Source: a virus
Reading direction: 5' to 3' (one strand)
DNA: 64,000 nt
IMG/VR virus record: IMGVR_UViG_3300045988_096839
Every line of letters starts with the position of its first letter. Position 1 is the first letter of the stretch. Below are positions 4,309 through 64,000 of the stretch, one piece after another. The notes under the pieces were generated by a model that ran no database searches, was not told the DNA's origin, and was given only the letters and a program-made list of their open reading frames with translations. A program made the translations under genes and the position numbers.

Positions 4309-7300
4309 TTAATTCTTTTTAGCCAAAAAGTCGAACTCATATTGAATATTCTCTAAACGACTAAGCTGTCTATAGATAGGAATCATTTGTCCAATAGAAT
4401 ATAACAATTTATTTTCCCCATCATTTTTACCAGTAGTATATACATCTGTAGGATGCCATAATCGGTCATACAATCGACCTAAATTATCCACAGCAGACAT
4501 AACTGGAAACGGATTCTGAATAATCTGTGTAAATGACCAAGGATTAAAATAAAATGAAAAATCGGTATAAACACGATATAATTGATAAGCTATGTTCATA
4601 TAAACAATATCAATACCTTCATCGTCATCACCTTCAGCCAATCCTCTAAATACATTAGATAATACATAAGCTGATATAACAAGTATCAATTCTGTAATTG
4701 ATTTTTTCAAATTATTTTTTTCATCGGTTGTTAACTAATTCCATCTTAAAGCAGTACGTTTATCTCTATCCAATTGTTTACCTAAAGCAATTTTGATATT
4801 ATCAATAGCAGGATTATAAAACATTTCTTTACTTATTCTAAGTAATGTACTGTGATATCCTTCAATCCATTCACCACGAATATTATCGTAATATCGTTTG
4901 CTAAAACGTCTTTGGAATGAAGTATAAATCCATTTACGGAACATAAGTAATAATTTACCCCATATGTACTATTGTATAGCAACAGCCCATCTACTATTAT
5001 AGTTACCGTGCATACCCATTAAAGTAGATCTTACTCCCATACTGAACTCATTCATTCTTTTTTCATCAAAATTGGCTACTTTATCGTCTACAACTAATTC
5101 TCCGTTTTTATTAAAACTAAGATAATCAATCATACTACCTAACTCATTACCATTTTTATCTATAGCTTTTAATTTGTATAAAGCTGCTAATAAAAATCTT
5201 GTTTGAGTTAATCTTTCACCAATATTAGTAGTCCAGTAAGCAGCATCTGTAGTAAATAGTCTTTGTACTCCTTTTGCTCTTAAATTAGGATCTCCTGCTT
5301 CATAAATACCAAACCAATCCACTAATTGATTTACAAAATCTTCTGGTACTCTTCTACCAATATCAGCTAACATACTACCTGATATAAGATGTTGCCCAAA
5401 CAATTTACTAGCTTTTAACATCGATTTATGGTCTATCCAACGACTACCAAAAGCTTCAACAAACTGATTTAATTCTGCAACAGTTAAGTTATTAATCATA
5501 CTGATGTAGTTGACACCCATAACACGCATAGAATAATATTTCATTATTGTTTTGGCAAGTTTATCTACAGATATGTTACCAATTTCGGTATTAGTACGAA
5601 TTTGATTACCGTAGAACACCTGATCCAACCATGAAGCAAATAATTTATATGTGTTTTCAGATTTGGTAACAGCTTTTTCTTGTTTACCTTGTAATTTACT
5701 TAGGATTGAAACATTTTGTGTTTCAGTAGATCTATTCTTCAATATTTCTGCTGTCATTAACATAAAATCTTCAATCTAAAGTTTTGCTTGATGCTCTAAT
5801 GCGCTGTGTAACCATCTTGCATAAATAGTAGGTAAATCAAATGATTGTAAATCCAAATTCAATCTTTGATTATAAAACAAAGGAATTTGATTTACTACGT
5901 TACCATTCATATCGGTAAATACTTGTCCAGTCATAGCATCATCTTCTACTAGCATAGAAGCTTCTTTTGCATACTGAACAACTCCGTCTTTAACACCTTT
6001 TACACCATCTTCTGATACTCTTTCTACAAATTCTTTACGTATACCAGGTAATCGATAATTCAATTGTAATCTTGAAGATACACCTTTATCACCAATATCA
6101 TTAAGTTGTTTAAACATCTCCCATAATCGATATTTTACATCATTACTTTGTTTTAATTTCTATAAATTATCATATTTCTTATTAGGATATTTTGAACTGT
6201 TTATAACACGATATTGTTCTAACAAATCATCATATGCTTCATTTATACGATCGAACTGTTCCAGACTAATGATATTTTTATCTCTAAAATATTTCCAAGA
6301 TTTCTTATCTTTACCTTCTGCTCTTATATTCTTTAGTATTTTATTTTTATCACTGTCTTTTAAGTCTGATACTATTTCTTTAACAGCTTGTTCAAATTCA
6401 AACAACAATCCTTCTTTATCAATAATTGGCGCATTTTCGTCATACCATTTTTCAATGGCTTCTTGTCTCTACTAAAAAGTAAGTGAATGGTCGTTGTTTA
6501 ATTCCGTGAACATTTTTCTTCGAGCTACTACAAAAGAGTTAGGCACCTCATTAACAAGATATGCTTGACCATCTACGATTTCGATCATATCGTCGTATAA
6601 CTTTCTATGATCTGACCAGTTACCACCTTTATATTTTTTCTCATATTCGTCAGTCAATTTTATCATTTGACGAACTAATACTTGATATTTATGATCAGCC
6701 TGTTGTGTTTTCTCATCAAATATTTTTACGGCTGCTTGAACAAATGGATCTCTTGCTTGAAAAACATTACCAATATTTGCAGCAATTGTACTACATTCAA
6801 ATATATCATCGGCAACTCGTTTCTGACGATTCAACCACGTTGCAGTCTCCTCATCAATTTTATCACGTATTTCTTCTATTTTATTATCGACCCATTTTTT
6901 CATATCTTTTTCATCTACTCGACGATTATTTTCTTTATATTGCCTTTCGAACTCTAATCGATAATTTGCTTCTATGTTTTTAACATAAGGTGTTACTGCG
7001 TCCATATATAATCTTGAACCAATATCCTTATACGATGATATTATAGATCTTTGTAAAGTAGTTACCTCTTTGATAGAATCTGTTAATGTTTCGTATTCTT
7101 CTTCTGTAAAGAATGATTTAAATCTCTAAACGAAACCAGCAATATCATCAACCATATTAAACGATAAAGCCAAATCTCGATAGTTTCTAAGATATACCAA
7201 ATCCCATGTTACTGGTTCAGCATTTCTTTTACTTTCTTGAGTGTATTTTCTATCTATTTGTTTATATACTCTAGATAATTGGTCTATAGCAGTAATTAGA

Positions 7301-62385: not shown

Positions 62386-64000
62386 TTAATTAGTAAATGT
62401 ATATACATTATCATCGTTAAACTTTACTGGACTTTCGTCATCAAACCAATTTTGCGCAAATATTGGTCCATCAAAAAGTAAACGACTCTTGTTTTCTTTT
62501 TCTTTTTCTTTTACTACTACATTAAATAATTGTTCACGATAAATCATTACCTACATTAGAGCCATGACTCTATCGGTATTTATTATATCGTTGTATGCAA
62601 TTAATTCCTCTAATAGTGGTTCAGATAGTATGTTGTATAAGTTCTTTTTACCATCAGCATTTATATCATTCAACCAGTCTTTTATTAATCCTTCACCCCA
62701 AGCTTTAATTGATTTGTTCATATGGCAACCTTTCTTTCTCTATACTTTAGAGTTACCAACAATATCATTGATTATATCTGGTTGATCTGCTAGTAAATAA
62801 TCACAATGCTTATTAGCAAAGTAAACGAATAAACCTTTATTCTGATTTTCATACATTGCTCTGGCATTATAGTATATCAACAACTTACGAATATTTTCGT
62901 AGAAGTCATCTGCTGCTTGAGGTCTACCAGTATATTCTGCAACAATTATATCTGAATAAGATTCTATATTCTATATTCTTTTATATATGATACACGAACC
63001 TAATGAATTTGTTCCTGACTAATCATGGTCATATGGGTCAATTCCTGCAATATATAAACCAAATGGTGCATCTTTCATAGGATGTTCCCATATAACTATA
63101 GAACCAGTAGGATCATCATCTTTATTTAGAGGATAATGTGTAATATCTCCTGTCTTTTTAATTACCCAACTAATATTTCCATCAGGTGTTTGTACTAAAT
63201 CACCTATTTGTTTATGATTCTATAGCTGTTTATTTGTACGTATTCTAGCCAACTATTCCTATAGCTCTTTCTTAGGAAATATGTTTCCTCCAAATTCCAA
63301 ACAAGCTTCTGCTGGAGTAATACATCTTTCACAAACGTATCTATCTACTGCTACTGAATTAGTAGCATTTTGTATCATTTCTTTACGTTGTTCTAATATA
63401 AAATCTAGAGAAGGTTTACGTAATGTATTACCATCATTATCCATGTAAATACGATTACCTTTATCATCTCTAATATCCATATTAGCATACTATGGTATAA
63501 AGAATCCACATGTACTAGTTACTGCATTTTCATCCCATATATTCTATAATTCTATACAGTTATATCCTTTTGGTTTATAGAACATATCTTTTAATGTAGC
63601 AAAGTTTGATTCTTCATCTCCACCAGTACCAAATGCTATCATAGTACCAAATGCTATACTATCGACTTCGACAGACGGTCTAGCAATTTGCCATGCTGCG
63701 CCTAATTCTTTAAATGAACCAGCTTCTTCAAATAAGATTAGTTTTGCTTTTTTACCACGGACTATATCAGGATTATCCTTAAGAGTAACACCAATTATTT
63801 CTGATTTATATCCTAATTCTACTTCATTACCAAATTCATCTTTAGTAAAGAATCCAGCTCTTTTACGCATTGCTGTATTAACAGATCTCTTCTTACCCCA
63901 TGCAGTATTCTTATCGATAAAGTCCATATAATCCCATGCTTTAGTAAGAATGCCATCGTCTGTTAAGTATTGTTTATTTGAAGCATACACATAAGATTTA
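62386..64000 (-). CDS. terL: terminase large subunit (3' portion; 5' end beyond the window)
   Basis: Track ORFs 63259.. and 63544.. plus the hand-translated 62386-63258 are in one frame, with 9 TAG and no TAA/TGA. Walker B-like KLILFEEAG, coupling motif MIAFGTGG, and RNaseH-like nuclease GLYIAGIDPYDHD. Ends in TAA 62386. The frame is still open at base 64000. Confidence 0.8.

What the first reader, a model, noticed from the sequence alone, without database searches (positions are those of the whole stretch)
4309..64000. The whole late (minus-strand) block uses TAG as a sense codon; the early (plus-strand) block does not
The track shows about 75 minus-strand ORFs at or above the 60-aa cutoff. 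They collapse into about 40 genes because neighbouring fragments share a frame and every separating stop is TAG (plus-strand cta). I translated essentially all the gaps by hand. I tallied about 180 in-frame TAG and not one internal TAA or TGA. In an AT-rich genome TAA should dominate if these stops were random nonsense mutations. Every reconstructed gene ends in TAA or TGA, often in compact ATGA or TAAnnATG junctions with the next start. The read-through sequences carry recognisable motifs on both sides of TAG codons, for example in TerL, the S74 fibre domain, the M15 endolysin and the holin. The plus-strand early genes (about 1,300 codons, 1-4228) contain no TAG as sense codon or as stop. The switch coincides exactly with the bidirectional terminator at 4231-4268. 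Lineage-specific TAG (or TGA) reassignment restricted to late genes has been reported for some crAss-like and other gut phages. The phenomenon is therefore known, but this genome shows it very cleanly. As a consequence, standard-code gene callers would miss or shatter about 90 percent of this window.
Basis: partly seen in the sequence, partly recalled or inferred. Interest (0 to 1): 0.85.

Follow-up and report, generated by a model that had tools for sequence, protein, structure and literature searches.

The report
Phage late genes read TAG as glutamine

Summary
With only TAA and TGA as stops, 39 minus-strand ORFs tile 98.4% of 4309-64000. They hold 19,613 codons, 184 in-frame TAG and no internal TAA or TGA. 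Every one ends in TAA (26) or TGA (13).

Profile and structure matches cross the TAG sites in one stretch for TerL, portal and the PhiCrAss001 portal 7QOG. In 80 relatives the window's TAG sites align with TAG, CAA and CAG, so TAG means Gln.

The window's own genome is public (ENA and Logan contigs, 100% identical). It carries a tRNA(CUA) 759-833 nt beyond the window end, about 310 nt upstream of TerL. The tRNA body is Gln-like.

The plus-strand replication genes have 0 to 2 TAG among about 120 Gln codons. Nine same-strand genes upstream of the tRNA have none. The boundary is therefore the tRNA/TerL junction, not the strand.

The phage is Suoliviridae-like (delta crAss). This recoding is published (Yutin 2021, Borges 2021/22, Peters 2022). 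The RefSeq relative cr6_1 and the public gene calls for this contig already read through TAG. The finding is known and of low interest.

Side observations in relatives may be new: the suppressor tRNA is swapped between strains, and in some relatives it is split by a group-I-like intron.

The parts
4309..63990 (-). Recoded late block. 39 tiled ORFs covering packaging, head, tail, lysis and virion-enzyme genes. 184 in-frame TAG. All stops are TAA or TGA.
62386..64000 (-). Terminase large subunit, cut by the window end. 534 of 687 aa lie in the window, with 9 TAG there and 14 in the full gene.
   Evidence: phrog_6681 matches residues 6-506 in one stretch, 403 bits. The full gene is L085 3404-5467.
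59888..62383 (-). Portal protein, 831 aa, 7 TAG.
   Evidence: phrog_6547 matches 5-804 in one stretch, 576 bits. PhiCrAss001 gp20 (PDB 7QOG) matches 1-780.
55180..56646 (-). Major capsid protein, 488 aa, 1 TAG.
   Evidence: phrog_11589 matches 5-485. PF23898 Crass_capsid is on the identical public product.
54026..55108 (-). GIY-YIG homing endonuclease, free-standing, no TAG.
   Evidence: phrog_314 and phrog_5123. TAG counts.
47056..47514 (-). Endolysin, 152 aa, 3 TAG among 5 Gln codons.
   Evidence: phrog_894 matches 9-137, across TAG codons 15, 34 and 76.
43914..47108 (-). Tail fibre with a C-terminal S74 chaperone domain, 17 TAG.
   Evidence: Tail-fibre PHROGs, for example phrog_5668 at 668-1063. 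PF13884 Peptidase_S74 is on the public product.
38400..38882 (-). Holin, 160 aa, 3 TAG among 4 Gln codons, at codons 2, 7 and 21.
   Evidence: PF05105 Phage_holin_4_1 matches 31-140. TAG positions.
36279..36962 (-). HNH homing endonuclease, no TAG.
   Evidence: phrog_59 and phrog_959. Counts.
33719..34189 (-). 156-aa protein of unknown function next to the tail-tube homologue. All 8 Gln codons are TAG.
   Evidence: P = 2.8e-6 against the block-wide TAG share of 0.20. phrog_12177. The homologue is cr6_1 gp30.
9690..24833 (-). Giant 5,047-aa virion protein with a two-barrel RNA polymerase module (DFDID motif). 32 TAG.
   Evidence: Matches PDB 6VR4 (phi14:2 gp66), E = 1.8e-32. cr6_1 gp36 is a 4,400-aa homologue. 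Public call of 5,047 aa.
4309..9687 (-). Last late gene, 1,792 aa, 22 TAG. Function unknown.
   Evidence: Public call of 1,792 aa.
4233..4259 (.). Bidirectional intrinsic terminator hairpin between the convergent early and late blocks.
   Evidence: Sequence shown.
12..4228 (+). End of the replication block: Toprim primase C-terminus, DUF1064, AAA ATPase, metallophosphoesterase, PDDEXK nuclease. No TAG used as sense codon or as stop.
   Evidence: Extended to 19 genes and 4,015 codons of the same genome.

Best explanation
The window is about two thirds of a roughly 97.5-kb crAss-like phage genome of Suoliviridae (delta) type. Its late genes are written in genetic code 15, in which UAG is read as glutamine.

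Shown:
- TAG is a frequent sense codon in the late block, about 20% of all Gln codons. The block runs from TerL to the last virion gene.
- TAG is absent from the replication genes and from the same-strand genes upstream of TerL.
- TAG is never used as a terminator.
- The phage encodes a tRNA with anticodon CUA about 310 nt upstream of TerL. It lies between the TAG-free genes and the recoded genes.

Inferred:
- The tRNA is a tRNA-Gln derivative charged by the host GlnRS.
- Early genes are translated by the unmodified host apparatus.
- As the suppressor tRNA accumulates it out-competes host RF1 at UAG. Only then can full-length packaging, virion and lysis proteins be made. Recoding thus acts as a translational timer or interlock for late functions (the Borges et al. 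model).
For: Structure of the code:
- Coverage 0.672 with the standard code against 0.946 with TAG as sense. The alternatives TGA-sense and TAA-sense do not help.
- 184 TAG, 0 TAA and 0 TGA in 39 tiled ORFs, where about 1,830 TAA+TGA would be expected from off-frame density.

Homology across TAG sites:
- TerL and portal PHROG profiles, and the solved PhiCrAss001 portal, align in single stretches across all TAG sites.
- All 80 relatives also have in-frame TAG: 2,526 TAG against 14 TAA and 1 TGA in 252,831 aligned codons.

Amino acid:
- The window's TAG sites align with TAG 569, CAA 493 and CAG 216 in relatives. CAA is two substitutions away from TAG.
- Gln makes up 50% of the non-stop residues at those sites, against 56% self-conservation of ordinary Gln sites.
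- The likelihood ranks Gln first by about 2,000 nats.
- Relatives' TAG codons align mostly with Q in the window.

tRNA:
- The tRNA(CUA) lies at L085 3020-3094, in a contig 100% identical to the window.
- 62 of 81 related loci carry a tRNA(CUA) in the same slot.

Early/late contrast:
- 0 to 2 TAG among about 120 Gln codons in 19 replication genes of the same genome, P <= 8.5e-10.
- 0 TAG in the nine same-strand genes upstream of the tRNA.

Literature:
- The same pattern is reported for delta crAss-like phages (PMC7886860; 10.1101/2021.08.26.457843).
- Code 15 was validated by metaproteomics in two crAss-like phages (PMC9523058, abstract).
Against: - There are no peptide data for this genome.
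- The tRNA lies outside the window, and its charging with Gln is inferred.
- Half of the residues aligned to TAG sites are not Gln, although ordinary Gln sites are only 56% conserved.
- How host RF1 is overcome is unknown. No RF2, anti-RF1 or aaRS gene was found.
- One same-species strain (L004) has, in the same slot, a long-variable-arm tRNA(CUA) that does not look like tRNA-Gln.
- The timing function is a model, not shown here. Ten late genes lack TAG, and most per-gene deviations are not significant.
Confidence: 0.93

Rival explanations
1. TAG is a sense codon but encodes an amino acid other than Gln (Ser, Leu, Tyr or pyrrolysine), at least in some strains.
For: ARAGORN labels the tRNA 'Pyl', but only because of its anticodon. 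L004, L041 and L049 carry an 89-nt CUA tRNA with a long variable arm, and its best Rfam match is tRNA-Sec at 33 bits, below threshold. Long arms mark the Ser, Leu and Tyr classes in bacteria (established knowledge).
Against: Codon alignments favour Gln in every tRNA-type group, including the long-arm group (8 Q against 2 T and 2 A). The window genome's own tRNA is type I, starts with U1 and has a D arm seen with U1 only in tRNA-Gln. No pylS or pylBCD-like genes were seen in the regions examined.
Confidence: 0.03
2. The TAG codons are true stops: the late genes are decaying pseudogenes of a defective phage, or they yield only truncated products.
For: Under the standard code the first TAG falls at a median 10% of gene length.
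Against: The interruptions are exclusively TAG, with no TAA or TGA and no frameshifts over 19,613 codons. The TAG codons are conserved or exchanged with CAA/CAG in 80 relatives. Identical contigs were assembled independently from several samples. A dedicated tRNA(CUA) is present.
Confidence: 0.01
3. Read-through depends on the host, either a host suppressor or a TAG-reassigned host, and the phage tRNA is accessory. Alternatively UAG is removed at the RNA level.
For: Published surveys detect suppressor tRNAs in only about 40% of TAG-recoded phages. In 4 related loci with enough upstream sequence I found no tRNA(CUA).
Against: The window's own genome and most relatives carry the tRNA at the exact start of the recoded block. 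Five apparent absences are tRNA genes split by a 1-kb insertion. Hosts of such phages use the standard code according to Borges et al..
Confidence: 0.03

Closest known systems
Delta-group crAss-like phages (Suoliviridae), for example cr6_1 = Afonbuvirus faecalis NC_055894 (Yutin et al. 2021, PMC7886860)
   Same: Same gene order: a replication block converging on a late block that ends in a 1,500-1,800-aa and a 4,400-5,000-aa protein. Both have in-frame TAG throughout the late genes, a tRNA(CUA) upstream of TerL, no TAG terminators and TAG-poor early genes.
   Different: Only 74-78% nucleotide identity, and only over the conserved head and packaging genes, so this is a different species or genus. 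cr6_1 has a homing endonuclease between the tRNA and TerL, and 6 annotated TAG in its replication block.
Code-15 crAss-like phages of Borges et al. (10.1101/2021.08.26.457843), and the metaproteomic validation by Peters et al. (PMC9523058)
   Same: A single recoded structural and lysis unit, with replication genes in the standard code. A few gene families prefer TAG over CAA/CAG, including lysis genes and a gene next to the tail tube. Here these are 33719-34189 (8 of 8), the holin (3 of 4) and the endolysin (3 of 5).
   Different: No proteomics for this genome. Preferential recoding is significant here for one gene only.
Classical amber suppressor supE (tRNA-Gln with anticodon CUA) of E. coli (established knowledge)
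   Same: A tRNA-Gln body with anticodon CUA inserts Gln at UAG in competition with RF1.
   Different: supE is a weak host mutation that suppresses accidental stops. Here the tRNA is phage-encoded and 184 UAG codons are an obligatory part of the late genes.
TGA-to-Trp (code 4) and TAG-recoded Lak, Jade and Agate phages with code-change modules (Borges et al.)
   Same: Stop-codon recoding is concentrated in late and lysis genes. The suppressor tRNA sits in standard-code sequence upstream of the recoded genes.
   Different: Those modules can include release factors and aminoacyl-tRNA synthetases. None was found here.

Membership tests
Genetic code 15 (UAG=Gln) late-gene recoding of crAss-like phages | Conserved late genes are interrupted only by in-frame TAG, and the ORFs close on TAA or TGA | tested here: met
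   184 TAG, 0 TAA and 0 TGA in 39 ORFs that tile 98.4% of the block
Genetic code 15 (UAG=Gln) late-gene recoding of crAss-like phages | Homology continues across the TAG positions | tested here: met
   TerL 6-506, portal 5-804 and the 7QOG portal 1-780, each in a single stretch
Genetic code 15 (UAG=Gln) late-gene recoding of crAss-like phages | TAG positions correspond to Gln in homologues | tested here: met
   TAG 569, CAA 493 and CAG 216 at the 34 sites testable in relatives. Gln ranks first in likelihood.
Genetic code 15 (UAG=Gln) late-gene recoding of crAss-like phages | Phage-encoded suppressor tRNA with anticodon CUA | tested here: met
   None in the window. Present in the same genome at L085 3020-3094, 759-833 nt beyond the window end. 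Gln-like U1 and D arm.
Genetic code 15 (UAG=Gln) late-gene recoding of crAss-like phages | Early and replication genes are compatible with the standard code, and TAG is not used as a terminator | tested here: met
   0 TAG in 1,355 codons in the window. 0 to 2 TAG in 4,015 codons of the same genome, with stops 16 TAA and 3 TGA.
Genetic code 15 (UAG=Gln) late-gene recoding of crAss-like phages | Peptides with Gln at UAG | not testable with these tools
   Needs metaproteomics, as in PMC9523058
Crassvirales / Suoliviridae | crAss-type capsid, portal and TerL, plus a giant virion RNA polymerase | tested here: met
   PF23898 Crass_capsid, PhiCrAss001 portal, phi14:2 gp66 RNAP
Crassvirales / Suoliviridae | Family-level placement by phylogeny or shared orthologues | not tested
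   Only the best DNA hits were examined. They are to Suoliviridae records at 74-78% identity, with shared synteny.
Pyrrolysine decoding of UAG | A pylT-type tRNA together with pylS and pylBCD genes | tested here: not met
   The tRNA is an ordinary type I cloverleaf. No such genes appear among the annotated or profiled products of the window and its flanks.
Code-change module with release factor or aaRS (Lak, Jade, Agate) | A phage RF1/RF2 or aminoacyl-tRNA synthetase gene near the tRNA | tested here: not met
   None in the 64-kb window plus 13 kb of flanks, and none annotated in cr6_1. About 20 kb of this genome was not seen.
Programmed context-dependent stop-codon read-through | A few sites with a specific downstream signal | tested here: not met
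   184 sites in 29 genes, with only a weak bias at the +4 base (A 42% against 35%, P = 0.018)

The most novel reading that the evidence does not exclude
The slot upstream of TerL may be an exchangeable 'code-switch cassette'.

- Genomes of the window's own species (at least 97% identical) carry four unrelated tRNA(CUA) genes there. Each is shared with relatives that are only about 75% identical. One is an 89-nt tRNA with a long variable arm.
- In at least eight related contigs the suppressor tRNA gene is split after U35 by a roughly 1-kb group-I-like intron that encodes an HNH endonuclease. Standard tRNA finders miss such genes.
- This would explain part of the 'recoded phage without a suppressor tRNA' puzzle noted in the literature. 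It would also make expression of the alternative code dependent on RNA splicing.

I found no mention of either point in the papers I read.
Probability: 0.35. Interest if true: 0.5.

Novelty: already known. Interest (0 to 1): 0.25.

Why it matters
Practically: standard-code gene callers truncate 29 of the 39 late genes, which make up 88% of late codons. Such genomes must be called with code 15. Public pipelines now do this for this contig.

Biologically: the window is a clean textbook example of a phage genome written in two codes. The suppressor tRNA sits exactly at the junction, which fits the published idea that recoding gates late-gene translation. It adds no new principle.

The possible added value lies in the relatives. 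The suppressor tRNA gene appears to be swapped horizontally. It is sometimes invaded by a mobile intron, which hides it from tRNA finders.

Tried and rejected
- TGA-sense and TAA-sense codes do not lengthen the minus-strand ORFs.
- ARAGORN finds no tRNA in the window. The tRNA lies beyond the window end.
- Window-specific exact patterns found nothing in metagenome contigs or viral contigs. The source genome was instead found by exact-protein look-ups.
- PHROGs and Pfam give nothing for the 5,047-aa ORF. Only the PDB sequence search identified its RNAP module.
- Pfam does not support 'M15' for the endolysin at E <= 0.001.
- The 'TAG-free islands' inside the late block are mostly not significant per gene, because each has few Gln codons. 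I do not claim them as a feature.
- The nucleotide context of TAG differs only weakly from that of CAA/CAG.
- Rfam does not recognise the insertion in the split tRNAs as a group I intron. That reading rests on my hand-built P3-P8 core and on 4 compensatory pairs among only 4 distinct sequences.
- My genome contigs pattern was mis-registered by one base. It therefore sampled only tRNAs with U34 and A38, and the scan stopped at 120 rows. The isotype test is indicative, not exhaustive.
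Full report
WHAT THE WINDOW IS

The window has 30.6% G+C. GC skew changes sign at about 4.2 kb. Its best DNA matches in GenBank phages are ICTV-classified crAss-like phages of the family Suoliviridae: cr60_1, cr6_1 (Afonbuvirus faecalis), cr56_1 and others. Identity is 74-78% and limited to the capsid, portal and terminase region. Protein evidence agrees:
- PHROG terminase, portal and major head families.
- The solved PhiCrAss001 portal gp20, 7QOG.
- Pfam Crass_capsid on the identical public product.
- The phi14:2 gp66 virion RNA polymerase, 6VR4, inside the giant ORF.

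Gene order is the same as in cr6_1. A plus-strand replication block (primase, DUF1064, AAA ATPase, metallophosphoesterase, PDDEXK nuclease) converges on a minus-strand late block. The last two late genes are very large: 1,792 and 5,047 aa here, 1,561 and 4,400 aa in cr6_1.

CHECK OF THE OBSERVATION

Allowing only TAA and TGA as stops raises the coverage of minus-strand ORFs of at least 60 aa from 67.2% to 94.6%. It produces ORFs of 5,047, 1,792, 1,376 and 1,064 aa. Making TGA or TAA sense instead does not help.

A non-overlapping set of 39 ORFs tiles 98.4% of 4309-64000, with short gaps or 1-53-nt overlaps. It contains 19,613 codons and 184 in-frame TAG. It ends in 26 TAA and 13 TGA, never TAG.

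Because the ORFs were defined by TAA and TGA, their absence inside them is not itself a test. The test is that the other two frames of the same strand carry 57 TAA and 36 TGA per 1,000 codons. That density would give about 1,830 such stops in these frames.

29 of the 39 genes carry TAG, which is 88% of late codons and 81% of the window. The first TAG lies at a median 10% of gene length.

The seven plus-strand ORFs (1,355 codons) have no TAG and stop with TAA five times and TGA twice. The hairpin at 4233-4259 scores as a terminator on both strands.

HOMOLOGY RUNS THROUGH THE TAG CODONS

- The TerL profile aligns with residues 6-506 in one stretch, across nine TAG.
- The portal profile aligns with 5-804, across seven TAG.
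- The experimentally solved portal of the cultured phage PhiCrAss001 aligns with 1-780, across six TAG.
- The endolysin and fibre hits also straddle TAG codons.
- In the holin the TAG codons (2, 7, 21) precede the Pfam match at 31-140. No start codon after the last TAG would preserve the domain.

WHICH AMINO ACID

I fetched 80 related loci around portal homologues. All of them have in-frame TAG: 2,526 TAG against 14 TAA and 1 TGA in 252,831 aligned codons. At the 34 window TAG sites covered by these loci, the aligned codons are TAG 569, CAA 493 and CAG 216, followed by a long tail.

CAA differs from TAG at two positions. The association is therefore at the amino-acid level, not a matter of mutational proximity. 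Gln makes up 50% of the non-stop residues at these sites. Ordinary Gln sites in the same alignments are 56% conserved. An empirical substitution likelihood ranks Gln first by about 2,000 nats over Glu. In the other direction, relatives' TAG codons align mostly with Q in the window (792, with S next at 231). The preference for Gln holds in every group of loci defined by tRNA type.

THE SUPPRESSOR tRNA AND THE REAL BOUNDARY

The window has no tRNA, and it ends inside TerL. Exact-protein look-ups found public contigs 100% identical to the window:
- L085 (ENA ERZ19617638, 97,555 bp), identical over window 46692-64000.
- L218 (Logan SRR8675875), identical over window 1-11826.

In L085 a 75-nt tRNA with anticodon CUA lies at 3020-3094, on the late-gene strand. 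That is 759-833 nt beyond the window's right end and about 310 nt upstream of the TerL ATG. The nine genes upstream of the tRNA on the same strand include ThyX and a dGTP diphosphohydrolase-like gene. They have 940 codons, 30 CAA/CAG and no TAG. TerL, immediately downstream, has 14 TAG.

In L218 the 19 plus-strand replication genes have 4,015 codons and 118 CAA/CAG. They carry 0 to 2 TAG. The two TAG exist only if the longer code-15 starts are chosen, at codons 8 and 12. This gives P <= 8.5e-10 against the late-block TAG share of 0.20.

The recoded unit is therefore bounded by the tRNA/TerL junction on one side and the convergent terminator on the other. It is not defined by strand.

The tRNA starts with U1 in a U1-G72 wobble pair. 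The 59 tRNA-Gly(UCC) all have G1. This is independent, if partial, support for a tRNA-Gln origin. A weak 1-72 pair as a GlnRS identity element is established knowledge for E. coli.

62 of 81 related loci have a tRNA(CUA) in the same slot. So does cr6_1, where GenBank calls it tRNA-Gln.

MECHANISM

Shown: two codon dialects in one genome, the tRNA at their junction, and no TAG terminators anywhere.

Inferred: host GlnRS charges the tRNA. Early genes are translated under the host code. Late proteins become translatable only when the suppressor competes successfully with RF1. This is the published timing and lysis-control model.

TAG supplies 20% of late Gln codons overall. One gene next to the tail-tube homologue uses TAG for all 8 Gln codons (P = 2.8e-6). 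Holin and endolysin lean the same way. The giant RNAP protein uses TAG less, at 12%. This resembles the gene families singled out by Borges et al..

No release factor or synthetase gene was found in the roughly 77 kb examined, nor in the cr6_1 annotation.

COMPARISON WITH WHAT IS KNOWN

- Yutin et al. [quoted passage not shown] The recoding was usually confined to late genes, and suppressor tRNAs were present.
- Borges et al. described the single recoded structural and lysis unit of crAss-like phages and proposed the timing model.
- A 2026 preprint repeats the same analysis for another Crassvirales genome.
- The RefSeq record of cr6_1 already annotates read-through TAG: TerL 14, portal 11, giant protein 57.
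- The public gene calls for the window's own contig already give TerL 687 aa, portal 831 aa and the 1,792- and 5,047-aa proteins.

The finding is correct and already known. The genome itself is an undescribed species-level relative.

SIDE OBSERVATIONS, OUTSIDE THE WINDOW

(a) Genomes at least 97% identical to the window carry four different tRNA(CUA) genes in the slot. They are 51-73% identical to one another. Each type recurs in relatives whose portal is only about 75% identical. This points to cassette exchange. One type (L004, L041, L049) is 89 nt long with a long variable arm. Its best Rfam match is tRNA-Sec, below threshold.

(b) In L025, L053/L054 and L067/L074, and in three further IMG/VR contigs, the tRNA(CUA) gene is split after U35 by about 1.0 kb that encodes a 301-aa HNH endonuclease. 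Both halves are up to 100% identical to uninterrupted tRNAs of other loci. The insertion ends in G. Its last approximately 110 nt can be drawn as a compact group I core, P3 to P8, with R/S-like elements. All 32 pairs form, and 4 pairs show compensatory changes, although there are only 4 distinct sequences. Rfam does not recognise it. ARAGORN misses these genes by default. That may explain some of the 'missing' suppressors noted in the literature.

(c) A 69-nt tRNA-like cloverleaf lies between the tRNA and TerL (L085 3203-3271). It has a 4-nt 'anticodon' loop.

(d) TerL of several same-species strains carries inteins. Some strains have an HNH gene between TerL and portal. The window genome lacks both.

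VERDICT

Novelty: already known. Interest about 0.25. The side observations on the suppressor tRNA cassette are the only part that might be new.

Noticed in passing
L085 3020-3094 (same genome as the window; 759-833 nt beyond window position 64000, late-gene strand): A suppressor tRNA with anticodon CUA lies about 310 nt upstream of the TerL start. It is preceded by nine TAG-free genes on the same strand and followed by a terminator-like hairpin just before TerL.
   Followed up: yes
L002, L003, L004, L084-L088 (same species, at least 97% identical); tRNA slot upstream of TerL, e.g. L004 5423-5511: Four unrelated tRNA(CUA) genes, 51-73% identical to one another, occupy the same slot in near-identical genomes. 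Each type is shared with distant relatives, which suggests horizontal cassette exchange. The L004 type is 89 nt with a long variable arm, and its best Rfam hit is tRNA-Sec at 33 bits, below threshold.
   Followed up: partly
L067 6443-7517, L074 6469-7545, L025 5593-6666, L053 6381-7449, L054 6839-7907; also L090, L091, L094: The tRNA(CUA) gene is split after U35 by an insertion of about 1.0 kb. The insertion encodes a 301-aa HNH endonuclease and has a compact group-I-like core at its 3' end: 32 of 32 pairs form and 4 are compensatory. Default ARAGORN and Rfam miss it. All 8 copies found in IMG/VR sit in suppressor tRNAs.
   Followed up: partly
L085 3203-3271 (between the tRNA and TerL; also in L002, L004, L086, L088): A 69-nt tRNA-like cloverleaf with a 7-bp acceptor stem, D arm and T arm, but only a 4-nt 'anticodon' loop. 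MFE is -21.6 kcal/mol, z = -2.4. It was found only in this species. Its function is unknown.
   Followed up: partly
window 63628/63629 (TerL); L003, L004, L084, L086: Same-species strains carry intein insertions of about 1.1 kb, with LAGLIDADG/Hint domains, in TerL at this position and at a second site. L084 and L087 also have an HNH/NUMOD4 gene between TerL and portal. The window genome lacks all of these.
   Followed up: partly
window 33719-34189 (-): This 156-aa protein of unknown function, next to the tail-tube homologue, encodes all 8 of its glutamines with TAG (P = 2.8e-6). The cr6_1 homologue gp30 has 5 TAG among 9 Gln codons.
   Followed up: partly
window 54026-55108, 36279-36962, 56692-57888, 39658-42527 (-): Late-block genes without any TAG: the GIY-YIG and HNH homing endonucleases, the gene at 56692-57888 between the portal-proximal genes and the capsid gene, and a three-gene module at 39658-42527 (26 Gln codons, 0 TAG; P about 0.003 by my own arithmetic as 0.8^26). 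Individually these are not significant. The three homing endonucleases in the first half of cr6_1 are also TAG-free, but its fourth, gp32, has 2 TAG.
   Followed up: partly
window 9690-24833 (-): A single 5,047-aa ORF (15.1 kb) carries the crAss-type virion RNA polymerase module (DFDID motif; matches 6VR4). Its TAG share of Gln codons is 12%, significantly below the block average of 20% (P = 1.7e-4).
   Followed up: partly
window 590-592 and 2703-2705 (+): An in-frame TAG lies just upstream of the starts of the DUF1064 gene (GTG 599) and the PDDEXK gene (ATG 2709). Public code-15 gene calls extend both genes through these TAG, giving 136 and 343 aa. Which start is used is undecided.
   Followed up: no
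L218 1754-1827 (same genome, about 7.2 kb left of window position 1): A tRNA-Ile(GAU) gene sits inside the replication block. It is the only other tRNA seen in the parts of this genome examined.
   Followed up: no
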